Part shown: one piece after another, positions 7,275-41,118 of the stretch
How positions within the stretch are numbered: the first letter of the stretch is position 1
How the letters are laid out: the number at the start of each line of letters is the position of its first letter
Source of the DNA: an uncultured Gammaproteobacteria bacterium
GTDB lineage: Bacteria; Patescibacteriota; Patescibacteriia; UBA9934; GWF2-40-263
NCBI GenBank assembly: GCA_964359095.1
Contig: CAYHRJ010000002.1
Location: forward strand, 1-44,495
Length of the DNA stretch: 44,495 bases
Reading direction: 5' to 3'
The notes under the pieces: generated by a model
Seen by the model: only the letters and a program-made list of their open reading frames with translations
The model's database searches: none
Told to the model about the DNA's origin: nothing
Made by a program: the position numbers and the translations under genes

Positions 7275-7281
7275 CCGTCAC

Positions 7282-8803: not shown

Positions 8804-8834
8804 AAAATCGGTCCGATGTGGACCGATTTTTTTT
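8802..8834. terminator. Bidirectional intrinsic terminator between convergent genes
   Basis: 13-bp perfect stem aaaaaatcggtcc/ggaccgatttttt with loop gatgt; an A run on one side and a T run on the other. Confidence 0.8.
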
Positions 8835-20785: not shown

Positions 20786-21463
20786 TTACGATGCCGATTT
20801 TGTCGCAATGATGAAGTATCCACCGTGTGCATTTCGCAGATTGGGTGATGACAAAACAATGGGGGTTCGATCAAGAAGGATGAGTACATCTATGAGAGGA
20901 AGAAACAAATAGAGAATCAACCGAATTGGCTCTGGCATTGCTTTTATGAATAATTTCAAGTGATCCGCCAGTACCGTAAAGTATCTTCCCATGATGGAAA
21001 AAACTTCAATTTGAAAATTTCTTTTTGATAACTCTTGTTTCCATTTCGTTTCTGTCCACCTTTGATAATCATGTGGATCGGAATGGACAAGGTAAAGAAA
21101 TGGGACAGAGATAATGAACCTTCCGCCTATTTTCAAAACCCGTGTGCATTCATCCAGACCAGCTTCAATTTTTTCTACATGCTCAAATAGTTCGCAAGCA
21201 CAGATGACATCGATGCTTTCAATTTCTATTGAGTCCATTTGTGCAACATCTAGAACAATGTCTGGATAATGTGCTGGATTGATATCAGCAAAAATCCATT
21301 TTTGAACCTGCGTTTTTGGTTTTACGAATCGTCCTCGGCCTCTTCCGCCTATATCTAAAACAACTCCAGAAAAAAGTGATCGATGTTTATCGAGATATTG
21401 ATCCAGGAGCTTTCGTCGATAGCTTTCGCAAAAATAATAGCGAATTTGCTTAAATATGTTCAT
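20786..21463 (-). CDS. Class I SAM-dependent methyltransferase
   Basis: VLDIGGRGRG motif I and the CELFEHV post-motif; 14-nt overlap with the upstream gene. Confidence 0.7.
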   Translation of the reverse strand: MNIFKQIRYYFCESYRRKLLDQYLDKHRSLFSGVVLDIGGRGRGRFVKPKTQVQKWIFADINPAHYPDIVLDVAQMDSIEIESIDVICACELFEHVEKIEAGLDECTRVLKIGGRFIISVPFLYLVHSDPHDYQRWTETKWKQELSKRNFQIEVFSIMGRYFTVLADHLKLFIKAMPEPIRLILYLFLPLIDVLILLDRTPIVLSSPNLRNAHGGYFIIATKSAS

Positions 21464-22247: not shown

Positions 22248-22264
22248 AATTCACCAAAACTCTT

Positions 22265-23311
22265 TTATCTAGTCAATAGATTGATAGCGAAACGAACTTT
22301 GTTTTTCATTTTCCATATGAGGATTTGACTTTTTAGTCGTGTCAATCCGATCAGATGACATTGTTTGGGCATATATCTTTTTTTCTGTGTCTCCCGCCAG
22401 ACCTGTTCAATAAACGAAAGATAATCTTTAGCTGCGGTTCGTATATCATATTTTGGGAGGTGCGATTGATAGAGATTTAGATTGTTTGCGACAACGTCGA
22501 TTTTTTTCAATGCTTCTTCTTGTGTGGCAAACAACTCTCCTCCTGTTTGAACAAGTTCTTGGTGGCCACCATCGTTTAGGGCAACGGCTGGGAGTCCGCA
22601 AGAGAGGGCTTCGACGAGTGCATTTGAACAAGGGTCTTTTTGGGAGGCTGTGATAAAGATATCATGTTCTTTCAAAAGTTTTGCCAGTTCAATCGAACCA
22701 ACAGCAGGAATTGTGTGTATGTGTTTGAATGGAATATTCGTGTTTCCAACAAAAGTCATCTCGTATTTGTTGAAATTCAGTTTTTCGTCCAAATATTGGT
22801 AGAGATCGAATCCTTTGCGTGGGTTTGATGACCAACTGACTACGATGAGTTTTGTTTTCGTACGATTTGCATTTGGGTCGCGTCCTTTTTGGTTAAAGAT
22901 CTCCATGTCCGGTGCATTATAAATAACTGTTTCATATACTGAGGAGATCCCGAACTGTTTTTTGTTTTCGTTTTGGCACCATTTTGATTGGAAGATGATT
23001 CCGTCGCACAGGAGCTGATTAAACATTGCGATGACTTGATCAACCTCTTTATCCGTATTTCGAATGGTTGAAATGGGTCCATTTAAGCGATAAATGAAAA
23101 GCTTTTGAGGGAATTGTTTTTTGATTTTGAAAGCCTGATCAAACAAGTATTCGGCTCCAAACGGGTAACTATTGAACAGAATCGCATCAGCCTCATCTGT
23201 GCGCTCTGTGTAGACACCTTGTCGCTGCCACTCTTTTTTGAGTGCATTTAAAAATTGATTTCCACCACCCCAAGGCTCCTCTCGCAGATTGTGGAGGATA
23301 GACATTTTCAT
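22265..23311 (-). CDS. Glycosyltransferase family 4
   Basis: ATG at 23311 (MKMSILHNL); C-terminal DPCSNALVEALSCGLPAVALNDGGHQELV GT-B motif; ATGA overlap with the upstream gene; the Arg-rich track extension is rejected. Confidence 0.75.
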   Translation of the reverse strand: MKMSILHNLREEPWGGGNQFLNALKKEWQRQGVYTERTDEADAILFNSYPFGAEYLFDQAFKIKKQFPQKLFIYRLNGPISTIRNTDKEVDQVIAMFNQLLCDGIIFQSKWCQNENKKQFGISSVYETVIYNAPDMEIFNQKGRDPNANRTKTKLIVVSWSSNPRKGFDLYQYLDEKLNFNKYEMTFVGNTNIPFKHIHTIPAVGSIELAKLLKEHDIFITASQKDPCSNALVEALSCGLPAVALNDGGHQELVQTGGELFATQEEALKKIDVVANNLNLYQSHLPKYDIRTAAKDYLSFIEQVWRETQKKRYMPKQCHLIGLTRLKSQILIWKMKNKVRFAINLLTR

Positions 23312-24375
23312 ACAAGTGGTTGGTACAGCTCCTCGAAATAATGACGTGCGATATTGTCCCACGAGGAGTTCCCAACCTCCTTGAGCGCCTGGTCGGCGAG
23401 CTTTTTTTTGAGATTCGGATCGCCATGCAGTCGCCTGACGTTGTGGGCGAGTGCGTTTACATCTTCGACCTCTGCGAGCAGAACGGTTTCCCCGTCTCGC
23501 GCGATGTCTGGCACCATACCGACTCGAGTCGAGACAAGAGGGATCCCGCTTGCCCAAGCTTCCAGAAGGGATTTCGGTCCTCCTTCAAGTCGCGACGTGA
23601 TCAAGTAAACGTCCAGCGCATGGTACATCGATGGGAGCTCGTTGATGTGGTGAAGGTATGTGTGCACATACTCAATTCCGTATTCCTTGAGTCGGTGCTT
23701 CACGTAGCCGCGGGAAGGTCCGGTGAGCAGAACAAGAGGATTAAAGGCTTTGAGCCTGGCCAACGTCTCCACTAGAAGATCCGGTCCTTTGTTTAGCTTG
23801 GGCTCAAGACCCTCGCCCCAGCCAACACCATCTTTTTGAAAGGAGCCGATGACCAGCCGATCAGGTGCTATGCCGAGCCTTTCACGCACCGCGCGTTTTT
23901 GCTCCGGTGTCGCTGGAGTGAAGAGTGTTGTATCAACCCCAAGAGGGATCACGACGATTTTTTGTTCATCGATTCCAGCCTCAACGAGCGTGCGTTTGGT
24001 GGACTCACAGGACGTATGGATCGCGTGGAGTTCTTGCTGGATTTGAACAAGCCGTTTCACGCGCGGGTCGTCGTCTAGGATATGAAACCACGTGAGGATG
24101 ACGCGGTTGGATGGGTGTGGTTTGTTCCATCCGGTTTTCGTAAAGAAGGTATTCACGCTACCGAAATGGATAATTTGATTGTGTAGGAGACAAGGGCAGT
24201 AGGTGATGCGTGTTTTCACGAGATGTTGTTGGTTCAACGCTCGCGTGATTGATTCGCCGTCATGCTTGATTGACCAGTCATAGGTTTCGACGATATAAGC
24301 AAGTTTAAAACCACGCAGACCTGCGGTGAGGTTGCCGACGATGCCTTTGAGTCGAAGGAGGATGCGTTTCATCAT
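23308..24375 (-). CDS. Glycosyltransferase family 4
   Basis: ATG at 24375 (MMKRILL); EGGPKSLLEAWASGIPLVSTRVGMVPD motif. Confidence 0.8.
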   Translation of the reverse strand: MMKRILLRLKGIVGNLTAGLRGFKLAYIVETYDWSIKHDGESITRALNQQHLVKTRITYCPCLLHNQIIHFGSVNTFFTKTGWNKPHPSNRVILTWFHILDDDPRVKRLVQIQQELHAIHTSCESTKRTLVEAGIDEQKIVVIPLGVDTTLFTPATPEQKRAVRERLGIAPDRLVIGSFQKDGVGWGEGLEPKLNKGPDLLVETLARLKAFNPLVLLTGPSRGYVKHRLKEYGIEYVHTYLHHINELPSMYHALDVYLITSRLEGGPKSLLEAWASGIPLVSTRVGMVPDIARDGETVLLAEVEDVNALAHNVRRLHGDPNLKKKLADQALKEVGNSSWDNIARHYFEELYQPLV

Positions 24376-24431
24376 GAGAGAAGGCTGACGACCACCCAGA
24401 TTTCGCCAAGAAGTACGTCGTGGTGTGGAGT

Positions 24432-24599
24432 CTAAAACAGTGTGTAAATAAACGGCGCGAGTGCCGAACCTTCGACGAACACCAAGACAATGCCCAACAG
24501 AATCAAGAAAACCATCACGGGTCCAATCCACCACTTTTTGTAGTGTCGCATGAAACCCCAAAGTTCATGAAAGATGGAAAGCTTGCTGTTTTTGAACAT
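24432..24599 (-). CDS. DUF5989-family small membrane protein (55 aa), absent from the ORF track
   Basis: Hand translation of the minus strand gives MFKNSKLSIFHELWGFMRHYKKWWIGPVMVFLILLGIVLVFVEGSALAPFIYTLF*. The KKWW..P....L.LLG......GSA.APFIYTLF pattern is characteristic of the small protein found with polysaccharide carbamoyltransferases. Confidence 0.7.
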   Translation of the reverse strand: MFKNSKLSIFHELWGFMRHYKKWWIGPVMVFLILLGIVLVFVEGSALAPFIYTLF

Positions 24600-24601
24600 A
24601 G

Positions 24602-25651
24602 TCATTGCACGAGGTTATTTTGCTTCAAGAAGTGTAGCAGGTTTTGAGCCGTCAAGTAGTATCCGGTCGTGGATGGGTGGCCGTTCCAAGGGAGCAGATA
24701 GGTGAGGCGGGAATCGGCGTCGCGCAGGAAGGTCGAGGCGTCGAGCAAAGGGGTGTCGTATTTCTCGCCGAGTTCCACAACAAACGAAGCCATCTTTGTT
24801 TTCTCACCTTCGACAGGATCCAGGCTTACCATTCTCGCTTCAGGATAGAACAGGACAACGATCGGAATGCTGTGCTCCCTGGCAAGTGAAACGAACTGGG
24901 CGAACGCTCCCTCGTACGCTCCCTCGTACTCGCGGTTATCGCCGTAGAGGATTGACTCGTAGAGGGCGTCGTCTCCCTGTGCACGCGAGTCGAGTATATC
25001 CTGCGCTACACGAGCATTCTTCAATTTCACTAGCGCCGCCACGAAGTACGAATGGTCGTACAGGAAGTTTTTGACGACCCACTTCGCCTCCACCTTCCAG
25101 TCTCCCGTCTTTGGTCGCTTGAACAACCCGCGCTGAACCTTGCGTATGTCCGCAATGTCATTGAAGGTCACTTCAAGGATGATGAGGTCTGGATTCAATG
25201 TGATGCCTTTGTCTGTCAGATACGCAAGCTCGTCGGCAATCGTGTAGGACGCGATGCCAGCGTTCAGTACCTCAACCAGTTGTTCAGGGTTTTCTGATCG
25301 CAAGAGCTGTTCCAAGCGCGCTGGCCAGGTTTCATCATTCGCGACATACGGTCCAAACGTAAACGAATCACCGATGGCGAGGATCCGCAGAGTATCATCG
25401 TCAGTGACTGACGCGTCCTCATTGTTGCGTAACCCGAGATTGTTGGTGGAGACGACGTAAGGATGTTCCTCGGCTATCAACGAGAGGATCTCCTTGTTAG
25501 GCCGTAGGTCGCCACAACATTCAAACGAGTGGCCCCAGCCTTTGGTTCGCCTGATATCGACAAGTCCGCTGACTCGAACCAACAGTTCTAAAAGAATCAG
25601 GAGCACCATGCCCAATGCGAGGGAGAGGAGGATGTACCTACATCGAGTCAT
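24602..25651 (-). CDS. Membrane-anchored SGNH/GDSL-family hydrolase or acyl-esterase
   Basis: N-terminal TM helix, then the ILAIGDSFTFG block I (GDS motif); 2-nt gap to the DUF5989 gene. Confidence 0.7.
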   Translation of the reverse strand: MTRCRYILLSLALGMVLLILLELLVRVSGLVDIRRTKGWGHSFECCGDLRPNKEILSLIAEEHPYVVSTNNLGLRNNEDASVTDDDTLRILAIGDSFTFGPYVANDETWPARLEQLLRSENPEQLVEVLNAGIASYTIADELAYLTDKGITLNPDLIILEVTFNDIADIRKVQRGLFKRPKTGDWKVEAKWVVKNFLYDHSYFVAALVKLKNARVAQDILDSRAQGDDALYESILYGDNREYEGAYEGAFAQFVSLAREHSIPIVVLFYPEARMVSLDPVEGEKTKMASFVVELGEKYDTPLLDASTFLRDADSRLTYLLPWNGHPSTTGYYLTAQNLLHFLKQNNLVQ

Positions 25652-25653
25652 GG

Positions 25654-27423
25654 CTAGTCAAGATTAAAGGTTTTGAGATAGCGTTCGCGATCTTCTGGAC
25701 GGATCAGATGAATATTCTCCGACTTGCTGACGCGATACGATCCAATGAAGAGATCATCCATGTCCGTGTTTAGGAAACACTGGATAGCATCTTGCGGACT
25801 GCAAACAATCGGCTCGCCGCGCACGTTGAAGGACGTATTGATGAGCAAAGGACAGCCTGTGATATCACCAAATGTCTGAATAAGGTTATAATACATCGGA
25901 TTTTGTTCTCTGTTGATGGTTTGAAGTCGCGCGGAGTTATCGACATGTGTTACTGCCGGGATGTCCTTCGTCTTTGTTTGAGCCGTGAGTAACATAAATG
26001 GGCTCGGACAGACGTTATCAAAGTAGTCTGAGCTCTTGTCTTCCAGTACAGATGGGGCAAATGGTCGGAAACTCTCTCGGAATTTGATTTTGAGGTTCAC
26101 GCGTTGCCAGTTTTCCTTTTTACGCGGGTCCGCGAGGATCGAGCGGTTGCCAAGAGCTCGGGGTCCGAATTCCATTCGTCCATGAAACCAGCCGACGACA
26201 TGATTGTTCGCGATAAGGCGCGCGGCCGTTTTTATGAGAGCGTCTCGATCTTGCTTGTGGCAGACAATTTTCTGTGACTCCAGTGCCTCCTTAATTTCAT
26301 GGTCGCTGAATGCCGGTCCCAAGTAGGTGTGCTTCATTTCAAATGAACGAGGATTATTAAAGACGGTATGAGACATATAAAGCGCCGCACCAAGCGCACC
26401 ACCAGCATCTCCAGCCGCTGGTTGGATGAAGATGCGTTTGAACGGTGATTGTTTGAGAATTTTTTCGTTCACAACACAATTCAGAGCTACGCCACCGGCC
26501 AAACAGAGGTTTTCCGATGGGTGAAGTTCGTAGGCATGCTTCACGATCCCAAGCACGGCTTCCTCTGTGATGCGTTGCAAGGAGGCAGCGATGTCTTTTT
26601 CGCGTTGGGTGAGTGGAGATTCAGGTTGTCTTGGAGGAGCACCAAACAACCGATCGAATTTTTTATTGGTCATGGTCAGCCCATAGGTGTAGGCGAAATA
26701 CCTTTGATCGAGTTGGTAACTTCCGTCTGGATTCAGCTGGATTAGCTTACGCATAGCTGAGTCATATGGTTCAGGATCACCGTAGGGTGCTAATCCCATG
26801 ACTTTATACTCAGCGCTGTTTACTTTGAAACCGAGATAATACGTCAGTGCCGAATAGAGCAATCCCAATGAGTCAGGGAAGTGGATCGATTCGGTGATGG
26901 TGAGATCGTCGCCTTTCCCATATCCGATCGTGGTCGTTTCCCACTCGCCGACACCGTCGATGGTCACGACGACGGCTTCCTCAAATCCCGAAGGGTAAAA
27001 CGCGCTAGCGGCGTGTGAGAGATGGTGTTCGCTAAAAAGGATTGGTCCTGAGTAGCCGAGTGTTTTTTGAATTGTCTGTTTCACCCAGAGCTTCGATTTC
27101 ATCCAAACAGGAATCGCTTTGAGGAATGTCTTGAGTCCGTGCGGCCATGTGTACACGAATGTTTCCAGAAGACGGTCGAATTTCAAAATAGGCTTTTCGT
27201 AAAAGACGACGTAGTCGATATCTTGGATTGTCAGACCTGCTTCTTTTAGACAGTAATCGATCGCATTTGTCGGAAAGTGTTCGTCGTGTTTTTTTCGTGT
27301 AAATCGTTCCTCTTGCGCGGCAGCGACGAGCTCACCGTCTTTCAGGATAGCTACGGCGGCATCATGATAGTCAAAGGAAAGGCCGAGAATTGTTTTGGAT
27401 GTTGAGGCGGCGATATTCCCCAT
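25654..27423 (-). CDS. NodU/CmcH-family carbamoyltransferase
   Basis: ATG at 27423; ILGLSFDYHDAAVAILKDGELVAAAQEERFTRKKHD, the HHLSHAASAF motif and C-terminal VDNSARLQTI..NTSFNVRGEPIVCSP are hallmark carbamoyltransferase motifs. Confidence 0.9.
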   Translation of the reverse strand: MGNIAASTSKTILGLSFDYHDAAVAILKDGELVAAAQEERFTRKKHDEHFPTNAIDYCLKEAGLTIQDIDYVVFYEKPILKFDRLLETFVYTWPHGLKTFLKAIPVWMKSKLWVKQTIQKTLGYSGPILFSEHHLSHAASAFYPSGFEEAVVVTIDGVGEWETTTIGYGKGDDLTITESIHFPDSLGLLYSALTYYLGFKVNSAEYKVMGLAPYGDPEPYDSAMRKLIQLNPDGSYQLDQRYFAYTYGLTMTNKKFDRLFGAPPRQPESPLTQREKDIAASLQRITEEAVLGIVKHAYELHPSENLCLAGGVALNCVVNEKILKQSPFKRIFIQPAAGDAGGALGAALYMSHTVFNNPRSFEMKHTYLGPAFSDHEIKEALESQKIVCHKQDRDALIKTAARLIANNHVVGWFHGRMEFGPRALGNRSILADPRKKENWQRVNLKIKFRESFRPFAPSVLEDKSSDYFDNVCPSPFMLLTAQTKTKDIPAVTHVDNSARLQTINREQNPMYYNLIQTFGDITGCPLLINTSFNVRGEPIVCSPQDAIQCFLNTDMDDLFIGSYRVSKSENIHLIRPEDRERYLKTFNLD

Positions 27424-27425
27424 AC

Positions 27426-27644
27426 TTAATACTGATGCGACGCCCAGTCCATGGTCGGATCTAAAGACTCTTTTTTTATCCAACCCTTATGATGTGGTTG
27501 AAACATTGACACGCTTCGTTTGGCCAAAGCGATGACCCCAATGATTACAAGATAAAAAACAGTAAGCAATATAACAGCGTTAATTTTGCCAATCGTGTGT
27601 GCAAAACGCATCCAAAGTTTTTTTGCTTGTTGGAGGATTTTCAT
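27426..27644 (-). CDS. Small membrane protein, SxtJ C-terminal-half-like (uncertain)
   Basis: 72 aa with one or two TM segments, immediately upstream of and abutting the carbamoyltransferase; its position matches the SxtJ/DUF5989/carbamoyltransferase trio seen in glycan loci. Confidence 0.45.
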   Translation of the reverse strand: MKILQQAKKLWMRFAHTIGKINAVILLTVFYLVIIGVIALAKRSVSMFQPHHKGWIKKESLDPTMDWASHQY

Positions 27645-28267
27645 ACTACAGAGACGACCACCCAGATTTCGCCGAATTGAATTGACTGGGATTGTATCAC
27701 GAGCCCAGCACGCGCAAGTTCCTGGGTGAAATTTTCGAGGGTGTATTCAGTGAAGTGTGTCTTGTCGAGTCGGAACTCGAGTCCGAGTTCTTTTTTGTAC
27801 AGCGTGATCCAATCGCGGTCGATCATTGGGACGCGGATGAGAAATGTGGGAGCGAGGGGGGTGATGTGTGTGAGAAATTCAACGCGATGTTCGATGTGTT
27901 CCAGGACGTTGGAGAGGACAACGACGTCAAAGGTCTGTTCAGGGGAGAGAGTTATTGCGTCTGCGATTTTGTAGGTAAGGTTTGGCGCAGCGAATTGTCC
28001 TTGCCACGCTGATTGATGTTTTGGATTGAGATCGATTCCCAGGACTCGCTTCGCTTTTTTGGCGAGATCAAATGCGAGCGCCCCGTTGCCGCAGCCGATG
28101 TCGAGCACGCGGTTGCTTTCACGAATGTGGTCGAGAAAAAACTGGTGGTAGTTCATGAGCCGATGCTTGGGATGCAAACCACCCTCAGCCTTGATGGCGA
28201 ATGTGCTTGCAAGTTTGTAGCTCAGGTTGTGCAATCCTAGGGACAGTCGGACAAGGAGTGTGTACAT
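27641..28267 (-). CDS. Class I SAM-dependent methyltransferase
   Basis: ATG at 28267; VLDIGCGNGALAFDLA motif I, LGIDLN, VVLSNVLEHI. Confidence 0.75.
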   Translation of the reverse strand: MYTLLVRLSLGLHNLSYKLASTFAIKAEGGLHPKHRLMNYHQFFLDHIRESNRVLDIGCGNGALAFDLAKKAKRVLGIDLNPKHQSAWQGQFAAPNLTYKIADAITLSPEQTFDVVVLSNVLEHIEHRVEFLTHITPLAPTFLIRVPMIDRDWITLYKKELGLEFRLDKTHFTEYTLENFTQELARAGLVIQSQSIQFGEIWVVVSVV

Positions 28268-28269
28268 AA

Positions 28270-29064
28270 TCAAGCGGTTTTTCTCAGAACGAGAACGGTC
28301 ATGTGGCCAGTCCATCGACCCAAGCATACGGTGAGTAGAAGACGAAATCCGCGGGCGAGGAAGTTTTTGCTCTTGTAGAGTTTTTGGAGCACGAGATGCA
28401 GGAAAGGAAGTTCATCTTTTAATCCTTTGAGCGCATCGTACAAGTAGATTCTCTCAAGCTCAAATCCTTGGCCGGCGAGTTCGCGAGTGACGATGTCTTG
28501 ATCGAGCATGAATTCGTAAAAGTCGTTTGTGTTTGTTGATGGGGAGAGGAGTGGATAGCGGTTCAATCGTGCTTTGAGTTTTCGCAGAGGTGACATCACA
28601 GGAAACGAAAGAAAAAAAATACCACCAGGCTTGAGAATACGATGCGCTTCTTTTACGATCTCTTCGTAGCCATTCCAAAAGTGTTCGATCACACCCAAGG
28701 ACCAGTACGCGTCAAAATAGGCGTCAGCGAAGTTTGTGTGCTTTACATCTTGAACGGACAACTTGAGATTGGGGAGCATTTCCCGGACAGCTTGGATTGT
28801 CTCAGCGGCGTAATCGATTCCGTACGCATCATATCCCCATTTCTGTAAGCAGGAGACAACCTCTCCCGTCCCGCATCCTCCGTCCAGAATCCGACCACCT
28901 TTGGGCGCATACTGTTTGGTGAACCGTTCAATGAAGTGATGTGTTTTTCCAGAGCTCACCCGTTCCTTGATGTTTTCTTTTTTCCATTGAGTATCCCAAA
29001 AGTCTGAGGTTGCTGCCTTTTCAAAGACGGCTAGGCGTTTGTTTGTGGCGTCGTAGAGAGTCAT
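28270..29064 (-). CDS. Class I SAM-dependent methyltransferase
   Basis: ILDGGCGTGEV motif I, YGIDYAAE motif II, SLGVIEHF. Confidence 0.75.
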   Translation of the reverse strand: MTLYDATNKRLAVFEKAATSDFWDTQWKKENIKERVSSGKTHHFIERFTKQYAPKGGRILDGGCGTGEVVSCLQKWGYDAYGIDYAAETIQAVREMLPNLKLSVQDVKHTNFADAYFDAYWSLGVIEHFWNGYEEIVKEAHRILKPGGIFFLSFPVMSPLRKLKARLNRYPLLSPSTNTNDFYEFMLDQDIVTRELAGQGFELERIYLYDALKGLKDELPFLHLVLQKLYKSKNFLARGFRLLLTVCLGRWTGHMTVLVLRKTA

Positions 29065-35271: not shown

Positions 35272-36582
35272 ATGGGCTTCATTTTTCGAAAAATAACTTT
35301 GTTAGTTGGAGACTTTGTCTTGCTCTATTTTTCTCTGTGGCTGGCTCTCTTGATTGGCTTCTGGGGCAATGTTGACATCGCGCTTTTTCTTGAGCACGCC
35401 ATTCCTTTCTCTTTTCTCTATTTCGTTTGGCTTGTTATTTTTTACGTGATGGATCTCTATGACCTGTCTCTGCCGCCATCTTCTCCGTCGTTTCTCACGC
35501 GGTATGTTATTGCCTTAACCCTCTTGTTTCTCACAGGTGTCCTCTTTTTTTACTCGACCACGCTCACGGAGATCACTCCCAAGACCAACCTTCTCACACA
35601 CGTTGCCCTCTTTGGTTTTCTTGCCTATGTGTGGCGTGTGCTTTTTTTTGCGAGGATTTCCTCTCTCGTTCCTTGGCACATTGGTCTTCTGGAATTGGGA
35701 GAACATGGGATTGAGCTGCAGGAGTCTATTGGCTTGCTGAAACAGCATGGGTATGAGTGTGTCGTGTTGCTGTCTCAGGACAACTTATCTGACCAGATCA
35801 AACAACATGGTCTTCAAGTCGTAGTTCTTCCTCCGATGTTTCTTGTCAGTGGCGATCATCTACAAGGTCTGTACGCGTGCCTTGGAACAGGCGTAACGTT
35901 TCTCGATCTCTCTCAAGCCTATGAACTTTTTGCTCGCAGGATTCCGCTTACCACGATCGATCAGCAGTGGTTCATCAGGAATGTACAAGAACGAGATTCT
36001 GGGATTTCTCGTCGTATCAAACGACTGTTTGATATCGTTGTTGCCTCGCTTGTCCTCCTACTCACATTTCCTCTGTTGTTACTCGTGGCGCTAGCAATCA
36101 AGATTGATGGCGGAGAAGATATTTTTTATACGCAAGAGCGAATAGGAAAAAATCGTGTTCCATTTTTGATCAAGAAGTTTCGCACAATGCGAGTCGACGC
36201 GGAGGCTCACGGCGCTCAATGGGCGACGAAGGATGATCCTCGTGTCACGCGTGTTGGAAATTTTCTTCGCCGTTCGCATTTTGACGAGCTTCCGCAAATG
36301 ATCAACGTCTTGAAAGGGGAGTTGAGTCTTGTTGGTCCACGTCCTGAACGACCGATGTTTGTCGAAACGCTTGAGCGAGAAGTTCCACACTACCACGTGC
36401 GTCATTTTGTGAAGCCAGGTTTTACCGGTTGGGCACAAATAAAATTTCGCTATGCGCGTTCTGTGACAGACTCTCGGCGGAAATTTGAGTACGATCTTTA
36501 CTACATAAAAAATCGATCTTTGATTTTTGATTTTCTTATTCTCCTTAAAACAGCACAGCTTTTATTCAGGAGAGAGCAGTAA
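35272..36582 (+). CDS. Polyprenyl-phosphate glycosyl-1-phosphate transferase (WbaP/EPS priming sugar transferase family)
   Basis: Four N-terminal TM helices plus the bacterial sugar transferase domain [52 protein letters not shown]. Confidence 0.85.
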
Positions 36583-36628: not shown

Positions 36629-36745
36629 AGAAGAAGTAGGAAGCAGGAATTTGGAAGTAGGAATGTGAGTTGAAATTCGAACTTCTAATTTTTTTGTATT
36701 CCTACTTCCTACTTCCTACTTCCAAATTCCTAATTCCATTTTTTT
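36629..36745 (+). terminator. Long hairpin built from inverted 7-nt tandem units, followed by a T run
   Basis: Left units are aagtagg/aagcagg/aatttgg/aagtagg; right units are cctactt x3/ccaaatt/cctaatt. There is a 19-bp perfect pairing of 36646-36664 with 36713-36731, then ccatttttttatttt. Confidence 0.6.
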
Positions 36746-36801
36746 ATTTTGAATTACGAACGATTTATACACAGGCACTTGTTTTTTCTCACAGCACTTA
36801 A

Positions 36802-36810
36802 TGTTATAAT
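36802..36810 (+). promoter_or_regulatory. Extended -10 promoter element TGtTATAAT
   Basis: Perfect TGnTATAAT at 36802-36810, 74 nt upstream of the ATG at 36884; no good -35. Confidence 0.4.
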
Positions 36811-36883
36811 TTTCTCGAACTTTTTTGATGGCATTGAGCGCCATCGATTTACTTTTACATTTAACCGCCCTAATTTTTTTCTT

Positions 36884-38635
36884 ATGAAGAAGATTGTCGT
36901 CCTCTTCCTCGGACTCTTGATGGGAATCGCGAACGTTGGTGTTTCACCGGCGCATGCTGGTACCACAGCCACGCTTTCGCTTTCTCCAACTAATACATCC
37001 GTGGAGACAGGGGACTCTTTTAGTTTAAGTGTGCTCGTCGACGCTAACGACGAATCGCTCGACACCGTGCGCGTCGATCTCAGTTTTGATCCAGATCTCG
37101 TCGAGATCACCTCGTTTGATCTTGGAAGCTTGTTTCCAAACTTGTCTCCATCGAACGACACAGACAACGATGCAGGGACTCTCAGCTACGGCGCGTACAA
37201 GTTCGGCACACCCGTGACGAGCTCTGGCACGCTTGCCACCGTTACGTTCCACGCTCTCTCAGAGGGGACAGCCACTATCGAAGTGGAAAGCACATCACGA
37301 TTGATTTCAGATGGTGAAGAAACCCTCGACACAGGTGACCTGGGTTCAGCCACGATTACTATTTCAGGTGAGGATGTTGCGTCTGAAGCGGTCGAAGAAG
37401 AAGAGGAAGAATCCGATGACTCAAGTAGTGGTGCAACCGAGAGTGACGAAGCAGCAGCTCTTGTCTACTTCGGTGCACTGTTTGGACGTCTTCCATCCAG
37501 TGATGACGATTGGGAAACCAATGACTGTATTGCTAATGATGGTTGCTATGACTCGGACAACCGCAATCTGACCTACGAAGTTGCTGCGCTTGCAAAGTTC
37601 AACAGCAAGTATGGAGCAAATCCATCCTCGTCCATGGACTGGCAGGCTGTACACGCTCTTGCCTATACCGCGGCTGGACAAGAATTGTTGGGTCTTGATG
37701 TGATTGCGGAAGCAGATGATGAGGAAGAGGTGGCGGAGGTGGATGAGGTAGAAGAGGTGGTTGAGGAAGAATCAGAAGCAAGTCTTGAGCAGCAAGCTCT
37801 CGTCTACTTTGGTGCGTTCTATGCCCGTATGCCTTCCTCAGATGACGACTGGTCGGCTCTGCACTGCATTGCCTACGGCGGATGCCAGGGAGATCCACGC
37901 GATGTCGCAGCTGAACAAGCAGCGCTCGTGATCTTCGGCGCCAAGTACGCAAAAATGCCTTCCACAGATATGGAATGGAACGTCATTCACACGCTTGCTT
38001 ACACAGACTTTTTAGATGAAGGCGATGAAGGAGAAGAGGTGGCGGAGGTGGAAGAGGTAGATGAGGTGGTTGAGGAAGAATCAGAAGCAAGTCTTGAGCA
38101 GCAAGCTCTCGTCTACTTCGGTGCGTTCTATGCTCGTATGCCTTCCTCAGATGATGACTGGTCCGCTCTGCACTGCATCGCTTACGGCGGATGCAAGGAA
38201 GATCCACAAGATGTCGCCGCAGAACAAGCCGCACTCGTGATATTCGGTGCCAAGTACGCAAAGATGCCATCGACCGACATGGAGTGGAACGTGATTCACA
38301 CACTTGCCTATACAGATTTCTTGGATGAGGGCGGCGAGGAAGAAGTTGTAGAAGAGGAGGTCGTTGAGGAAGAAGCGGCAGAAGAGACAGAGCTCACACT
38401 CGAGCAGCAGGCCATTGGCTGGTTTGGAACAATCACAGGACGCCTTCCATCTGAGGACGCTGACTGGGTCGCCATTGATTACATGGTGAACGGATACACC
38501 CCAAGCGAGGACGAGCGCGATCTAGAAGCAGAGTCCGCAGCCATCACGACGTACGTTGATGCATTCGGTGCTCTCCCAAGCTCTGATCAAGACTGGAATA
38601 TTGTTGCCGCGATTGCTTACTCAGGAGCCTTTTAA
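36884..38635 (+). CDS. Secreted cohesin-like domain protein carrying eight copies of an FG..P..DW repeat with poly-acidic linkers
   Basis: ATG at 36884 (MKKIVVLFLGLLMGIANVGVSPAHA signal peptide). The N-terminal module LSLSP..V..GDSFSLSVLVDANDESLDTVRVDLSFDPDLVEI is cohesin-like. It is followed by 4 pairs of 40-50-aa repeats. Confidence 0.6.
   Translation: MKKIVVLFLGLLMGIANVGVSPAHAGTTATLSLSPTNTSVETGDSFSLSVLVDANDESLDTVRVDLSFDPDLVEITSFDLGSLFPNLSPSNDTDNDAGTLSYGAYKFGTPVTSSGTLATVTFHALSEGTATIEVESTSRLISDGEETLDTGDLGSATITISGEDVASEAVEEEEEESDDSSSGATESDEAAALVYFGALFGRLPSSDDDWETNDCIANDGCYDSDNRNLTYEVAALAKFNSKYGANPSSSMDWQAVHALAYTAAGQELLGLDVIAEADDEEEVAEVDEVEEVVEEESEASLEQQALVYFGAFYARMPSSDDDWSALHCIAYGGCQGDPRDVAAEQAALVIFGAKYAKMPSTDMEWNVIHTLAYTDFLDEGDEGEEVAEVEEVDEVVEEESEASLEQQALVYFGAFYARMPSSDDDWSALHCIAYGGCKEDPQDVAAEQAALVIFGAKYAKMPSTDMEWNVIHTLAYTDFLDEGGEEEVVEEEVVEEEAAEETELTLEQQAIGWFGTITGRLPSEDADWVAIDYMVNGYTPSEDERDLEAESAAITTYVDAFGALPSSDQDWNIVAAIAYSGAF
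37715..38332 (+). repeat. Tandem duplication, 2 x 309 bp (103 aa), inside the cohesin-like gene
   Basis: gaagaggtggcggaggtgga.. at 37724 recurs at 38033. The two copies have the same length and differ mostly by synonymous changes plus a few replacements (QGDPRD vs KEDPQD and several acidic-linker residues). Confidence 0.85.
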
Positions 38636-38729
38636 GTAGGTAGATAAGGTAGAAGAGGTAGATATGGTGGATAAGGTAAGAAAACCACCTAATCCACCTA
38701 ATCCACCTACGCCACCTAATCCACCTATC
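38636..38729 (+). other. Intercistronic periodic inverted repeat: 5 x 9-nt purine-rich units abutting 5 x 9-nt pyrimidine-rich units
   Basis: ggtagataa ggtagaaga ggtagatat ggtggataa ggtaagaaa | accacctaa tccacctaa tccacctac gccacctaa tccacctat. It fills nearly the whole spacer between the stop (38635) and the next ATG (38734). Pairing is periodic (AGGT/ACCT blocks) and imperfect. Confidence 0.6.
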
Positions 38730-38733
38730 ACTT

Positions 38734-39609
38734 ATGCCATATAAAAAATTACCAGTCCTGCTCGTGGCGCTGAGTCTCGTGGCACTTCCATGGAGTGCGG
38801 GCGCGACGGTGTCCTCCACGAGTTATCAGATCAATCCTGAGCAAGGGTTCCTCTCACCATCGGCAGACGGAGGCGCCAACGCTGACGGCATGCTGAACTC
38901 CACAACCTACCAGCTTCAAGGAGCGATTGAACCTTATGCTGGTCGCGTTTCCAGCACCTCATATCAGGAAGACGGCGGAGGAGCGTTCCAGTTCTATTGT
39001 GGTGATGGATTTCGAGATTCTTCTGAAACGTGTGACGGCGCAGATTTGAACAGCGCGACCTGTGCCAGCCAAGGATTTGATACAGGAACTCTCACCTGTA
39101 GCTCAGCCTGTGCCTATGTGACCACTGCTTGTTCAACAGCGTCAGGTGGCGGCGGAGGAGGTGGCGGCGGTGGAGGTGGCGGAAGTGCGCCAGATGAACC
39201 AGAGGTTTCAGACGAGATCGCAACACTTGAATACTCTTACTCCACATCGTTCCTGCTTTACGGAAGCATGGATAGCGACACAGATGCGATCACCGTGAAC
39301 GATTCAGAAGATGACGTAGAACTCGTCGATGACGAAACATGGAATGCCCTCGTGTCACTTTCCTACGGGTTGAACAGTTTCGCGATCGTTGCAAGTGATG
39401 GCTCTAACGACTCAGACGAAACCGTCTACGAACTCTACCGAAGACTCATTGGCGACATCACAGGAAACGACACCGTTGATGACTACGACCTTTCCAAGCT
39501 CGTCGGAATCTGGGGTGATGATGATCGTTCAGGAGACTTCAACGAGGATGACATCGTGGACGACTACGACTTCTCCATGATGGTCGCACGTTGGGGAACA
39601 AGCGTTTAG
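38734..39609 (+). CDS. Secreted Cys-rich protein with a poly-Gly linker and a C-terminal dockerin-like domain
   Basis: Signal peptide; three S-T-S-Y-Q motifs; a CGDG..ETCDG..TC..C..C..C cysteine-rich repeat; a 13-Gly run. The C-terminal duplicated Ca-binding segments are DITGNDTVDDYDLSKLVGIWG and DFNEDDIVDDYDFSMMVARWG. Confidence 0.65.
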   Translation: MPYKKLPVLLVALSLVALPWSAGATVSSTSYQINPEQGFLSPSADGGANADGMLNSTTYQLQGAIEPYAGRVSSTSYQEDGGGAFQFYCGDGFRDSSETCDGADLNSATCASQGFDTGTLTCSSACAYVTTACSTASGGGGGGGGGGGGGSAPDEPEVSDEIATLEYSYSTSFLLYGSMDSDTDAITVNDSEDDVELVDDETWNALVSLSYGLNSFAIVASDGSNDSDETVYELYRRLIGDITGNDTVDDYDLSKLVGIWGDDDRSGDFNEDDIVDDYDFSMMVARWGTSV

Positions 39610-39618
39610 ATATTTTAA

Positions 39619-39689
39619 AGGTAGCCGTAGCCTTTAGGCTGCGTCCGGCGCGATTGCGTTGAATGCGCAGGCTGAAGCCTGCGGCTACC
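39619..39689 (+). other. GC-rich long imperfect hairpin between the dockerin gene and the second cohesin-like gene
   Basis: 39620-39643 pairs with 39666-39689 (20 Watson-Crick pairs, 2 G-U pairs and 2 mismatches by hand), including the perfect 8-bp stem ggtagccg/cggctacc. Confidence 0.6.
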
Positions 39690-39718: not shown

Positions 39719-40948
39719 ATGAAACAATTCCTTTCTGTTGTCGTGATCGGGATGATGCTCTTCTTGCCTGGTATCTCTCAGGCCGCCGGAGCCGCATCGA
39801 TGAGTCTGGACCAAGCAAGTTACTCGGTTGAACGTGGAGAACAATTCGACGTCACGGTGAGCGTAAACCCAAACGGGGAAGCACTCGACACGGTACGTGC
39901 GGTTGTCACGTTTGATCCAACGCGTGTGCAAGTACGAAACGTCTCTCTTGTCGGAGCGTTTGATCGTGTGGCGCCAGGCAACTATTGGGACAACGAAACA
40001 GGAAAAGTTTCATGGGGAGCTTTCACTCTTGAGGGTCCCGTGGCCGCTGAATCCTCATTTATCACCATCACCTTTCTTGGCCTTCAAGAGGGAAGTGGTG
40101 AGATCGAGATTTCAGGCGACTCACGAGCGATCGCAAATGGTGAAGAGAAGATCGACACAGGGAACCTCGGCGCTGCCGAGGTGAATGTGACCGCATCGAG
40201 CACAGCAGAAGCTGGGACAGCACTTATCGTCATTGAGAGTGCGACCCACACAAACGATGTTGACTGGTACGCGGTCAACGACGTGGAGTTCACCTGGACA
40301 GCCTTACAAGGAGATAATGACATCACGGCTTACTACTACTCATTCGATGAGACTTCTGACAGTGAGCCTGCGTCGTATCTCGCCGCGACAACGACAGAAC
40401 TGTCCTTCAGTGATGTCGGTGATGGCGTGCACTATCTCCGAATAAAGGGAGTGCAAGCAAATGGAAAGCAGACCAGCGTTGTAAGCCGACGAGTGAATAT
40501 CGATACCACTGCCCCGCACGAAATCGAGCTTCTGGTGCAGGACAACAAAATCCTAGAAGGCGAATCAGCCTGGTTCACCTTTGCCACACTCGATGATGTA
40601 TCAGGTGTGCTCCAGTACCAGATCGCGATTAACGATAGTGGCTATCAAGTCCAGGAAAGCCCACTGGAAATGAGCGATCTGCCTGTGGGAACGTACTTCT
40701 TTCGAGTGGCCGCGATTGATCGAGCAGGGAACGCTTCGTACGGAAGCACCTCAGTTCGCGTGTACCCAGAAGGAACGGACTTGAGTCGCCCAGATGGATA
40801 CGATGAGGACGCAGAGATGACTGCTATCACACAGTCGGTCAGTGACGAGACGAACAATACAAAGAAGCTGTTGATAACTTTCATCTTGGGAGTGATCATC
40901 ATTCTTGGTATAATTTCCGCGAAGAAAAAAAGAAAAATTAAATCATAG
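39719..40948 (+). CDS. Membrane-anchored cohesin-like surface protein with Ig/FN3-like middle region
   Basis: ATG at 39719 (MKQFLSVVVIGMMLFLPGISQAAG signal peptide). The module SLDQASYSVERGEQFDVTVSVNPNGEALDTVRAVVTFDPTRVQV is collinear with the 36884 protein. The C-terminal TM helix LLITFILGVIIILGIISA is followed by KKKRKIKS. Confidence 0.6.
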   Translation: MKQFLSVVVIGMMLFLPGISQAAGAASMSLDQASYSVERGEQFDVTVSVNPNGEALDTVRAVVTFDPTRVQVRNVSLVGAFDRVAPGNYWDNETGKVSWGAFTLEGPVAAESSFITITFLGLQEGSGEIEISGDSRAIANGEEKIDTGNLGAAEVNVTASSTAEAGTALIVIESATHTNDVDWYAVNDVEFTWTALQGDNDITAYYYSFDETSDSEPASYLAATTTELSFSDVGDGVHYLRIKGVQANGKQTSVVSRRVNIDTTAPHEIELLVQDNKILEGESAWFTFATLDDVSGVLQYQIAINDSGYQVQESPLEMSDLPVGTYFFRVAAIDRAGNASYGSTSVRVYPEGTDLSRPDGYDEDAEMTAITQSVSDETNNTKKLLITFILGVIIILGIISAKKKRKIKS

Positions 40949-41118
40949 CATCCACATGGACTCAGGGATAGGCTCAGTGATTTGGTGGCGACGCGACAAT
41001 GCATAACTCTTGCATTGCGTTTCTGCATTTGAGAAACCGTGTGGTTTCGTCTCCAGAATCACTAAACAATTTTTGACCCATTTCATAAATTAAGTGCTTT
41101 TCTAAGCGCGACAAAAGT

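What the first reader, a model, noticed from the sequence alone, without database searches (positions are those of the whole stretch)
36629..39689. Three consecutive intergenic spacers are long hairpins, two of them built from inverted arrays of 7-nt and 9-nt tandem units with SD-like / anti-SD-like arms
Seen in sequence: spacer 1 (36629-36745) has about five purine-rich 7-mers (aagtagg-type) facing about five cctactt-type 7-mers, with a 19-bp perfect stem. Spacer 2 (38636-38729) has exactly five 9-mers ggtRgaWaa followed immediately by five 9-mers (t/g/a)ccacctaN. It fills almost the entire 98-nt gap from stop codon to next start codon. Spacer 3 (39619-39689) is a different, GC-rich 24-position stem. 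The purine arms are strings of AGGA/AAGG/GAGG motifs that look like Shine-Dalgarno sequences. The pyrimidine arms (UUCCU, CCACCU) resemble the 3' end of 16S rRNA. Inference: these may be more than terminators. Options include intercistronic RNA stabilisers or processing sites that set the stoichiometry of the three surface proteins, translational occlusion of the dockerin gene start (the right arm ends 5 nt before its ATG and there is no free SD), or slippage-prone repeat arrays that vary stem length.
Basis: partly seen in the sequence, partly recalled or inferred. Interest (0 to 1): 0.65.

Follow-up and report, generated by a model that had tools for sequence, protein, structure and literature searches.

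The report
Unit-built hairpins between surface-protein genes
The three spacers are real, very stable hairpins built from 7- and 9-base tandem units; they look like a repeat-derived kind of gene-end hairpin (terminator or RNA-end protector) that turns over fast between strains of an uncultivated groundwater bacterium, not a ribosome-binding-site device.

Summary
All three spacers fold far better than dinucleotide shuffles (z -6.5, -5.6, -6.1; 0 of 200 shuffles as good). S1 has inverted 7-nt arrays and S2 has inverted 9-nt arrays.

The organism is a Candidatus Uhrbacteria (CPR). The genes are sugar transferase | S1 | cohesin-1 | S2 | dockerin-like | S3 | cohesin-2 | S4.

- **S1** sits where relatives have ordinary terminators and shares their T7AT4 tail. 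Heptamer hairpins also occupy this site in L003 and L020, with both arms changing together. Its array lies on at least 4-5 other contigs in the same metagenomes.
- **S2** is an insertion into a junction that is 3-30 nt and SD-less in about 30 of 39 relatives. It is conserved in one lineage, replaced by a different unit-built hairpin in a near-identical strain, and exactly deleted in another.
- **S3's site** holds unrelated hairpins in different relatives.
- **S4**, a fourth hairpin, is conserved in 15 loci with compensatory changes.

Best reading: repeat-derived gene-end RNA hairpins, with S1 a terminator, S3/S4 intercistronic 3' hairpins and S2 dispensable. The SD/anti-SD idea is not supported. 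No transcript data could be obtained. This is a new variant of known kinds (REP, heptamer repeats, the H. influenzae hmw hairpin).

The parts
35272..36582 (+). Bacterial sugar transferase gene, last gene of the upstream glycan/O-antigen-ligase-like block; S1 follows it
   Evidence: Pfam Bac_transf E 3e-67; the two upstream genes hit Wzy_C
36629..36750 (+). S1: hairpin of inverted heptamer arrays. Left array 36633-36664 (GTAGGAA type), loop 36665-36697 with a T7 run, right array 36698-36737 (TTCCTAC x5.6), then T7AT4 tail 36739-36750. Read as the intrinsic terminator of the upstream block
   Evidence: Fold z -6.45 with a 19-bp perfect run. TRF. The same TTTTTTTATTTTGAA tail follows a conventional terminator hairpin at this site in L004, and L006 has a conventional hairpin plus T7 here. 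Heptamer hairpins occupy the same site in L003 and L020. The array is multi-copy in the metagenomes
36802..36810 (+). Putative extended -10 (TGTTATAAT) of the cohesin-1 promoter, downstream of S1
   Evidence: Read from the sequence. The block is conserved in L002/L003 (TGTATAAT). Not listed by the promoter scan, so this is inferred
36825..36847 (+). Small hairpin in the cohesin-1 leader, conserved in relatives
   Evidence: Terminator-like scan hit. Same palindrome in L002/L003
36884..38635 (+). Cohesin-1 gene (583 aa) with a 309-nt tandem module duplication (37724-38333) and acidic EEV linker repeats (37728-37762, 38046-38080) that resemble both arms of S2
   Evidence: Pfam Cohesin. TRF. 20/23 match of the S2 arm, 0.00 expected. 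Local alignment scores 40 and 45 against shuffle maxima of 31 and 33
38636..38733 (+). S2: hairpin of inverted 9-nt arrays (GGTRGAWAA x4.6 at 38638-38678; CCACCTAAT x4.8 at 38685-38727) filling the stop-to-start gap. A dispensable, hypervariable insertion
   Evidence: Fold z -5.56. Homolog in L044-46 about 88-90% identical while 4-fold sites are 46-55%. Different hairpins in L047 and in the near-identical strain L170. Exact 99-nt deletion in run X6. Absent in about 30 of 39 relatives
38734..39609 (+). Dockerin-like gene (291 aa), SD-less in all relatives
   Evidence: 75 homologs, several carrying PF00404 Dockerin_1. Invariant duplicated DYD motifs. Upstream sequences
39619..39689 (+). S3: GC-rich hairpin (about 29 pairs, 5 of them G-U on the + strand), no clear U-tract. 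Read as an intercistronic 3' hairpin
   Evidence: Fold z -6.12 on +, only -2.3 on -. 14.6 kcal/mol better on +. Identical in other Hainich assemblies. Unrelated hairpins at the same site in L002/L003, L009, L018, L026, L040 and L048, none in L004-7, L044 and L049
39699..39704 (+). GGAGGG Shine-Dalgarno of cohesin-2, free of S3
   Evidence: Read from the sequence. Relatives also have GGAGG here
39719..40948 (+). Cohesin-2 gene (409 aa)
   Evidence: Pfam Cohesin
40976..41063 (+). Invariant outer stem AGTGATTTGG/CCAGAATCACT, covarying inner stems
   Evidence: 15 loci aligned (A3). 23 pairs, 10 with compensatory changes. Mostly more stable on the sense strand. No Rfam match

Best explanation
S1, S2 and S3, together with a fourth conserved hairpin S4, are gene-end hairpins in one co-directional surface-protein cluster of a Candidatus Uhrbacteria genome. 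S1 and S2 belong to a lineage-wide habit of building intergenic palindromes from inverted arrays of short tandem units, mostly heptamers.

Transcribed with the upstream gene, they fold into long 3' stem-loops.
- S1 is the intrinsic terminator of the upstream glycan block. It is a stem followed by U7AU4, and that tail is shared with the ordinary terminator at this site in L004.
- S3 and S4 have no U-tract. They most likely act as intercistronic 3' hairpins: partial terminators, exonuclease barriers or RNase III sites, as in selective RNA processing and stabilisation.
- S2 is a recent, dispensable insertion into an ancestrally very short, SD-less junction that is probably translationally coupled. 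Because the hairpin spans stop to start, it would keep the two codons close together.

The periodic arms arise and change by unit slippage, with both arms kept complementary either by selection or by intrastrand template switching. They are not there to mimic SD/anti-SD.

Shown: fold, periodicity, positions, presence/absence, sequence constraint, multi-copy status, tail homology, and covariation in S4.
Inferred: transcription through the hairpins, termination, stabilisation and coupling.
For: - Folding and periodicity.
- Terminator position of S1: it lies between the stop of the sugar transferase gene and the putative promoter. L004 has a short GC hairpin followed by the identical TTTTTTTATTTTGAA tail at the same site, and L006 has a canonical hairpin plus T7. 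The organism also uses canonical terminators elsewhere, e.g. 8800-8832.
- Age and arm co-evolution of S1: heptamer hairpins sit at the same site, with conserved flanks, in L003 and L020. The unit changes from TTCCTAC/GTAGGAA to TTCCGAC/GTC(A/G)GAG.
- Constraint: the S1 and S2 arms are about 88-100% identical to L003 and L044, while 4-fold codon positions are only 38-55% identical.
- S4: 10 of 23 pairs have compensatory changes across 15 loci, with a sense-strand G-U bias. S3 is 14.6 kcal/mol better on the sense strand.
- Many unrelated hairpins occupy the S3 site in relatives.
- Class-level support: in 459 kb of Uhrbacteria/Parcubacteria loci, period 7 dominates the non-coding tandem arrays (23 arrays, 12 with an inverted partner).
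- A worked precedent exists: the H. influenzae hmw1A leader is a heptamer-repeat RNA hairpin cut by RNase III that controls a surface adhesin (PMC12721329). Gene-end stem-loops set cellulosome stoichiometry in clostridia (PMC4423207, PMC10311766).
Against: - There is no transcript evidence at all. Only one 150-nt metatranscriptome contig matches, inside cohesin-1.
- The S2 family (window, L044, L047) and S1 of L003 fold 7-15 kcal/mol better as the antisense strand. L020's S1 shows the same A-for-G pattern by eye. These are A.C mismatches in the sense RNA, which is not what selection on a sense-strand hairpin predicts.
- S3-type hairpins in relatives show no consistent strand bias.
- S2, S3 and S4 lack U-tracts, and L003 and L020 lack the T-tail after S1.
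- S2 is absent, replaced or deleted in close relatives and strains, so at least that one may have no function.
- Co-evolution of the arms is equally expected for inverted protein-binding sites.
Confidence: 0.5

Rival explanations
1. Selfish or neutral dispersed palindromic repeats (REP/REPIN- or MITE-like). They insert, expand, get replaced and get deleted in intergenic DNA, with no role for the neighbouring genes. Their hairpin potential is just the signature of the element, or of slippage plus template-switch mutation.
For: - The S1 array lies on at least 4-5 other contigs per run with unrelated flanks. Their depth (5.4-7.2) is similar to this genome's, and summed depth is 42-58 against 4-9 in the unique flanks.
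- S2-like and S3-like pieces occur with other flanks.
- One heptamer family occurs at two sites in L034.
- The S2 site has three alleles in one population.
- Distribution among relatives is patchy.
- Heptamer arrays of arbitrary sequence, often in inverted pairs, are common in IMG/VR contigs.
Against: - S1 has stayed at one site, with its flanks, in relatives down to about 50% protein identity, and its arms are far better conserved than synonymous sites.
- S1 replaces a terminator and keeps that terminator's tail.
- S4 is conserved with covariation.
- No target-site duplication at the S2 joint (no letters shared by both sides).
- No transposase among the 26 window ORFs scanned.
Confidence: 0.25
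2. DNA-level iteron arrays. The 7- and 9-bp units, in direct then inverted orientation, would be binding sites for a DNA-binding protein (as the omega repressor binds heptads and ParR binds parC, both recalled from memory), regulating the cohesin promoter or acting on the chromosome.
For: - Unit sequences, not only pairing, are conserved between lineages.
- The two arms differ systematically (GGTAGAT versus GGTGGAT), so pairing is imperfect on the sense RNA.
- Unrelated contigs L091 and L108 carry TAATCCACC / GGTGGCGCA units scattered in both orientations, like iteron fields.
- S1 lies about 60-170 nt upstream of the putative -10.
Against: - S2 sits between a stop and a start codon, with no promoter needed there.
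- S1 carries a terminator tail.
- Units differ between sites and between strains, so no single binding specificity fits.
- Loops are short (6-33 nt), as in hairpins.
- No DNA-binding gene is linked in the cluster.
- S2 can be deleted.
Confidence: 0.1
3. The purine arms are strings of SD-like sites and the pyrimidine arms are anti-SD mimics. The hairpins would occlude or tune translation initiation (S2 masking the dockerin start) or act as ribosome-sensing switches.
For: - The S2 right arm ends 5 nt before the ATG. In L044 and L047 the stem reaches the ATG.
- ATCCACCT is one indel away from the usual 16S 3' end ATCACCT (from memory).
- In some phage contigs the same architecture carries perfect AGGAGG / CCTCCT units and abuts a real RBS (L179, L186, L269).
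- The purine arm comes first in 21 of 21 inverted pairs found in IMG/VR.
Against: - The dockerin-like gene is SD-less whether or not a hairpin is present.
- S2 is dispensable.
- S1 has no GGAGG and lies upstream of a promoter, far from any start codon.
- Real SDs in this cluster are GGAGG and lie outside the hairpins.
- Shuffled control heptamers are as frequent as TTCCTAC or CTCCTAC (23 and 14 hits versus 26 and 13).
Confidence: 0.07
4. The functional molecule is an antisense transcript, or single-stranded DNA of the minus strand, that folds across S2 and some S1 versions.
For: S2 in the window, L044 and L047, and S1 in L003, are 7-15 kcal/mol more stable on the minus strand, because the mismatches become G-U pairs there.
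Against: - No minus-strand gene or promoter is evident.
- S3 and S4 favour the plus strand.
- Homogenisation of one A/G difference through an array counts as about one event, so the bias may be chance.
Confidence: 0.05

Closest known systems
H. influenzae hmw1A 5'-UTR heptamer-repeat hairpin processed by RNase III (PMC12721329)
   Same: A tandem heptamer array forms one arm of a long RNA hairpin next to a surface-protein gene. Repeat number varies between strains. The hairpin, not just the repeat, is the functional unit.
   Different: - There, only one arm is a repeat array; the other is a G-rich region. The pyrimidine arm comes first.
- It lies in a mapped 5' UTR, and cleavage and phenotype are shown by experiment.
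- Here both arms are arrays, the purine arm comes first, S1 lies upstream of the putative promoter, and nothing has been tested.
Repetitive extragenic palindromes (REP/BIME, GTAG- and CGTC-tagged; PMC3733652, PMC2817692)
   Same: Dispersed extragenic palindromes, mostly downstream of genes between co-directional or convergent ORFs. Several families can coexist in one genome. They are proposed to act as RNA hairpins (termination, mRNA stabilisation). GTAG occurs in the S1, S2 and S3 units.
   Different: - REPs are 20-40 bp with an unpaired GTAG/CGTC tag, occur in hundreds of copies and are linked to RAYT transposases.
- These hairpins are 70-120 nt and internally periodic. GTAG lies inside paired units.
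- Copy number appears low (single digits seen), and no RAYT is known here.
Intergenic contiguous heptamer repeats (cyanobacterial STRR recalled from memory; TAACTGA repeats of Beggiatoaceae, cyanobacteria and Bacteroidetes, PMC4679880; Nostoc heptamers, bioRxiv 10.1101/2022.06.06.494920)
   Same: Contiguous 7-nt units in intergenic DNA, many sets per genome, often ending at or next to a start codon. Close relatives have shorter spacers without the repeats. Function is unresolved.
   Different: Those are direct arrays (169 direct sets versus one indirect in the Beggiatoa genome). Here about half of the heptamer arrays come as inverted pairs that form hairpins.
Selective RNA processing and stabilisation stem-loops of the clostridial cip-cel cellulosome operon (PMC4423207, PMC8219983, PMC10311766)
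   Same: Stem-loops at the 3' ends of successive genes in an operon encoding cohesin/dockerin proteins. Proposed to set subunit stoichiometry.
   Different: In clostridia the processing sites and transcript ratios were mapped. Here it is only an analogy of position. The hairpins are much longer, repeat-built and not conserved between relatives (except S4).
Intrinsic (Rho-independent) terminators
   Same: S1: a stable stem-loop directly followed by U7AU4 at the end of a gene block. It replaces conventional terminators at the same site in relatives.
   Different: - The S1 stem is about 40 pairs, AT-rich and periodic, with a 33-nt loop.
- S2, S3 and S4 lack a U-tract.
TIGR arrays of TIGR-Tas systems (PMC12045711), found among others in CPR bacteria
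   Same: Short-period repeat arrays with 9-nt elements in CPR and phage genomes. Some variants carry palindromes.
   Different: TIGR arrays alternate two 8-12-nt repeats with variable 9-nt spacers and sit next to a Tas (Nop-domain) gene. S1 and S2 are contiguous units without spacers, and no such gene was found.

Membership tests
Intrinsic terminator | Stable stem-loop in the transcript | tested here: met
   S1 -48, S2 -38.3, S3 -53.7 kcal/mol; z -5.6 to -6.5
Intrinsic terminator | U-tract immediately 3' of the stem | tested here: inconclusive
   Met for S1 (T7AT4, 36739-36750). Not met for S2 (CACTTATG). Weak for S3 (GATTATTCT) and S4. The consensus scan listed none of them, because its loop limit is 3-8 nt
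Intrinsic terminator | Lies at the end of a transcription unit | tested here: inconclusive
   S1 lies between the last glycan gene and a putative promoter. Relatives have ordinary terminators there with the same tail. Transcription units themselves were not mapped
REP (GTAG/CGTC-tagged) | Palindrome of 20-40 bp | tested here: not met
   The hairpins span 70-120 nt
REP (GTAG/CGTC-tagged) | Unpaired GTAG or CGTC tag at one end | tested here: not met
   GTAG occurs, but inside the paired units (GTAGGAA, GGTAGAT, GGTAGCC)
REP (GTAG/CGTC-tagged) | High copy number, dispersed, extragenic, downstream of genes | tested here: inconclusive
   Extragenic and downstream: yes. The S1 array is on at least 4-5 other contigs per metagenome run, but only one copy occurs in the 44.5-kb window. 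The whole genome is not available
REP (GTAG/CGTC-tagged) | Associated RAYT (Y1) transposase in the genome | not testable with these tools
   None among 26 window ORFs scanned against Pfam. The rest of the genome is unseen
Intergenic heptamer direct repeats (STRR / TAACTGA type) | Contiguous 7-nt units in intergenic DNA | tested here: met
   S1: TTCCTAC x5.6 and its complement x4.6. Period 7 dominates the non-coding arrays in related loci. S2 has 9-nt units
Intergenic heptamer direct repeats (STRR / TAACTGA type) | Direct orientation, one heptamer family in many sets per genome | tested here: not met
   S1 and 12 of 23 heptamer arrays in related loci are inverted pairs. Units differ between sites
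SRPS stem-loops | Stem-loop at the 3' end of genes inside one operon | tested here: inconclusive
   The positions fit (S2, S3, S4 between co-directional genes). Operon structure has not been shown
SRPS stem-loops | Processing sites and unequal transcript abundance across the stem-loops | not testable with these tools
   Only one RNA run holds any of the region: a single 150-nt contig
hmw-type SSR hairpin | Heptamer SSR forms an arm of a long hairpin in the mRNA of a surface-protein gene | tested here: inconclusive
   The architecture is met on the DNA sequence. Whether S1 is part of the cohesin-1 mRNA is unknown, since a putative promoter lies downstream of it
hmw-type SSR hairpin | Repeat-number variation between strains; RNase III cleavage | tested here: inconclusive
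   S1 is identical in three other assemblies. One contig (L173) has one unit fewer plus a loop variant, but it ends inside the array. RNase III cleavage cannot be tested here
TIGR array | Two alternating 8-12-nt repeats separated by variable 9-nt spacers | tested here: not met
   The units are contiguous with no variable spacers. Definition taken from PMC12045711
TIGR array | Adjacent Tas (Nop-domain) gene | tested here: not met
   No such domain in 26 window ORFs. ORFs at 21450-29064 were not scanned
Any Rfam family | Match at the gathering score | tested here: not met
   Only two tRNAs in the window. Permissive searches give only sub-threshold miRNA-precursor hits, i.e. generic long hairpins
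MITE | Terminal inverted repeats plus target-site duplication | tested here: inconclusive
   The whole element is an inverted repeat. The S2 deletion joint shows no shared letters. The S2 alleles of L044 and L170 share end motifs (CCTACTACCTA)

The most novel reading that the evidence does not exclude
Purine-arm-first hairpins built from inverted arrays of 7-9-nt units may be a widespread, so far undescribed class of intergenic element in CPR bacteria and many phage genomes. They would be modular gene-end or leader hairpins whose length and strength are tuned by unit slippage and swapped between strains. In this cluster they would give strain-level tuning of the ratios of cohesin and dockerin surface proteins, perhaps through RNase III as in the H. 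influenzae hmw leader.
Probability: 0.25. Interest if true: 0.65.

Novelty: new variant of a known kind. Interest (0 to 1): 0.48.

Why it matters
CPR/Patescibacteria are uncultivated, and almost nothing is known about how they end transcripts or balance operon products. This locus shows three things:

- Terminator positions there can be taken over by repeat-built hairpins.
- Such hairpins are swapped, expanded or lost between near-identical strains next to surface-protein genes, which are the genes most likely to mediate attachment to hosts.
- The same architecture recurs in phage contigs, with a strict purine-arm-first polarity.

If functional, it would be a simple, evolvable dial for gene-end strength. 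It would also extend the one worked example (H. influenzae hmw) to a very different branch of life. If not functional, it documents a mutational process (slippage plus palindrome maintenance) that shapes small genomes and breaks metagenome assemblies at these sites.

Tried and rejected
- **Known RNA families.** Rfam at gathering and permissive thresholds gave nothing but tRNAs and generic miRNA-like hits.
- **TIGR arrays.** The architecture and the associated gene are both absent.
- **S2 as coding sequence or a small ORF.** In one frame it reads VDKVEEVDMVDKVRKPPNPPNPPTPPNPPITYAI*, and both arms resemble the upstream EEV linker repeat. That frame is closed in the L044 homolog (read), so it is not coding. 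The linker resemblance stays an unexplained lead.
- **Transcript ends.** One RNA run, one 150-nt contig, no information.
- **Metagenome-wide search for the S2 unit.** Over 120 hits, mostly coding or high-GC unrelated DNA. Seven have inverted partners, none in Uhrbacteria synteny. Two look like iteron fields.
- **Is TTCCTAC special?** No. Two shuffled control heptamer arrays and the true anti-SD-like CTCCTAC are about as frequent in IMG/VR (23 versus 26, 13 and 14 hits).
- **DnaA-box likeness of TAATCCACC** (7 of 9 to TTATCCACA, from memory). Judged a weak lead given the position and dispensability of S2.
- **Strand bias as a test of RNA-level selection.** It supports S3 and S4 on the sense strand, but S2 goes the other way.
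- **Cluster look-up** of the dockerin-like protein found nothing.

Full report
**What is there.** The region holds six co-directional genes (homologs with PF00404):
- two Wzy_C (O-antigen-ligase-like) genes;
- a sugar transferase (35272-36582);
- a cohesin protein (36884-38635);
- a 291-aa dockerin-like protein (38734-39609);
- a second cohesin protein (39719-40948).

Homologs are annotated as Candidatus Uhrbacteria, and the same sequence occurs in Hainich groundwater assemblies.

| Spacer | MFE (kcal/mol) | z vs 200 dinucleotide shuffles |
|---|---|---|
| S1 | -48 | -6.45 |
| S2 | -38.3 | -5.56 |
| S3 | -53.7 | -6.12 |

No shuffle did as well, and the three are among the strongest folds in the window. 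TRF and autocorrelation confirm period 7 in both S1 arms and period 9 in both S2 arms. S3 has only a weak 6-7 nt signal. Rfam has no family for any of them.

**S1 is at a terminator position and is old.** S1 lies between the stop of the sugar transferase gene and a conserved leader that carries a TGTTATAAT box. It is followed by T7AT4.
- At the same site, bounded by the same flank (TTATACACAG), L004 has a short GC hairpin followed by the identical TTTTTTTATTTTGAA. L006 has a canonical hairpin plus T7.
- L003 (79% protein identity) has a heptamer hairpin with the same GTAGGAA/TTCCTAC units in different number and order.
- L020 (about 50% identity) has one with the units changed to GTCAGAG / TTCCGAC, so both arms changed together.
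- L018 has an 8-nt array there. L002 and L049 have unrelated sequence.
- The arms of the window and L003 are nearly identical, although 4-fold codon positions of the flanking genes are only 38-39% identical.
- Three other Hainich assemblies carry an identical S1. A fourth (L173) shows a loop variant and one unit fewer, but that contig ends inside the array.

**S1 belongs to a multi-copy family.** I laid the Logan contigs of four groundwater runs on S1. The right-arm array lies on six further contigs in run X1. Three have the array internal and three have it at a contig end, so there are at least 4-5 other loci. Their flanks are unrelated, and their depth (5.4-7.2) is close to that of this genome. 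Summed depth over the array is 42-58, against 4-9 on the unique flanks. I could not fetch those contigs, so their gene context is unknown.

**S2 is a hypervariable insertion.**
- In about 30 of 39 relatives the cohesin-1 stop and the dockerin start are 3-30 nt apart, with no hairpin and no SD.
- The window's S2 has a clear homolog in L044-L046. These are three independent samples at 82% protein identity. The units are the same, including the minority unit CCACCTACG, but the unit order and the loop differ. The arms are about 88-90% identical, while 4-fold sites are 46-55% identical.
- The closest relative (L047, 87%) has a different periodic hairpin that ends at the ATG.
- L170 is a strain whose flanking genes are about 100% identical, apart from an 85-87% tract in the last 400 nt of cohesin-1. 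It has a different 130-nt unit-built hairpin with GTAGG-type units.
- A contig in run X6 joins 38633 to 38733, an exact 99-nt loss of S2.
- Two more S2-like arrays with other flanks occur in the same runs.
- Both arms of S2 resemble the EEV linker repeat inside cohesin-1: 20/23 with 0.00 matches expected, and local alignment scores of 40 and 45 against shuffle maxima of 31 and 33. This may reflect a common origin, or it may be convergence of purine-rich 9-mers.

**S3 and S4.**
- S3 is identical in the other Hainich assemblies. It is 14.6 kcal/mol more stable on the sense strand, with five G-U pairs.
- Relatives carry at least six unrelated hairpins at this site (L002/L003, L009, L018, L026, L040, L048). 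Others have none, only a 20-nt spacer with GGAGG.
It is present in 15 loci with an invariant outer stem. Ten of its 23 pairs show compensatory changes, and it is mostly more stable on the sense strand.
- S4 is the best evidence that gene-end RNA structure matters in this cluster.

**A wider habit.**
- In 459 kb of related loci, period 7 dominates the tandem arrays whose period is not a multiple of three: 23 arrays, against 10 of period 8, 6 of period 5 and 1 of period 10. Twelve of the 23 have an inverted partner within 130 nt.
- L034 carries (GTGTAGC)n/(GCTACAC)n as a hairpin and the same unit again 2 kb away.
- Exact TTCCTAC arrays also occur in 23 IMG/VR contigs, 3-4 of them as inverted-array hairpins.
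- Two shuffled control heptamers and CTCCTAC are about as common (26, 13 and 14 hits), so the particular heptamer is not special.
- In all 21 distinct inverted pairs found with these four pyrimidine-rich probes, the purine arm is 5'. This polarity is independent of strand, and I cannot explain it.

**How it most likely works.**
- Most likely, S1 is the intrinsic terminator of the glycan block.
- S3 and S4 are intercistronic 3' hairpins acting as attenuators, exonuclease barriers or RNase III sites.
- S2 is a tolerated insertion in a translationally coupled junction.
- The nearest worked precedents are the H. influenzae hmw1A leader, where a heptamer array forms a long RNA hairpin cut by RNase III and controls an adhesin (PMC12721329), and the gene-end stem-loops of the clostridial cip-cel operon (PMC4423207, PMC10311766).
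- REPs (PMC3733652) and intergenic heptamer repeats (PMC4679880) are the nearest repeat families, but their defining features are not met.

**What speaks against this reading.**
- There is no RNA evidence.
- The S2 family folds better on the antisense strand.
- S3-type hairpins in relatives show no consistent strand bias.
- S2 is dispensable.

**Rivals.** I rate the selfish-repeat rival at 0.25, DNA-binding iterons at 0.10, the SD/anti-SD reading at 0.07 and an antisense role at 0.05.

**Verdict.** This is a new variant of known kinds of element, of moderate interest.

Noticed in passing
window 40976-41063: S4: a conserved hairpin after cohesin-2, present in 15 related loci. The outer stem AGTGATTTGG/CCAGAATCACT is invariant, and 10 of 23 pairs show compensatory changes. 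No Rfam family matches. It is a candidate new structured RNA element.
   Followed up: partly
window 5975-6053; L025 4895-4935: A long hairpin after ORF 4250-5962 has the core CCCCTCCTTTTCAAGGAGGGGATAGGGGTGGTT (an anti-SD/SD-like palindrome). Nearly the same core occurs in a distant Patescibacteria contig.
   Followed up: partly
window about 6035-8100: A GC-rich (58%) island of small ORFs with no Pfam hits. It has modular direct repeats between the ORFs (6035-6070 / 6875-6910 at 86%; 6717-6799 / 7286-7370 at 96-97%) and strong folds at 6681-6800. It looks like a cassette array or a mobile insert.
   Followed up: partly
window 11554-11629: tRNA-Ile with anticodon UAU, which is uncommon in bacteria.
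   Followed up: no
window 37724-38333: A 309-nt tandem duplication of a module inside cohesin-1 (89% between copies). It is single-copy in assembly L001, and contigs of runs X5/X6 skip 296 nt. This is either module-number polymorphism or assembly collapse.
   Followed up: partly
window about 38230-38530 vs L170: Strain L170 is about 100% identical across cohesin-1 except for a tract of 85-87% identity just before S2. That suggests a recombination import that also brought a different S2 allele.
   Followed up: partly
window 38715-38736 and related loci: The dockerin-like gene has no Shine-Dalgarno sequence in any relative, and usually sits 3-30 nt after the cohesin-1 stop. Cohesin-2 always has GGAGG. 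This suggests translational coupling of cohesin-1 and the dockerin-like gene.
   Followed up: partly
IMG/VR loci L179, L185-L187, L228, L264, L269 and others: Inverted heptamer-array hairpins of many different unit sequences occur in phage contigs, sometimes several per genome. In 21 of 21 distinct cases the purine-rich arm is the 5' arm.
   Followed up: partly
window 8800-8832: A canonical bidirectional terminator (A6-13 bp stem-T6) between convergent genes. It shows the organism also uses ordinary terminators.
   Followed up: no
L091 700-1040; L108 120-470: Unrelated metagenome contigs have dense fields of GGTGGCGCA or TAATCCACC units in both orientations around AT-rich DNA, plus an (ACGCAAAA)12 array in L108. 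They look like replication-origin or partition iterons.
   Followed up: no
window 3611-4174: An ORF6N-domain protein (phage antirepressor-like family) next to uvrA, with a strong internal palindrome at about 3850-3890.
   Followed up: no
L048 2500-2690: At the S4 position this relative has a -116 kcal/mol hairpin containing (CGCCGGCCTT) x4-6. This is another unit-built palindrome at a gene end of the same cluster.
   Followed up: no
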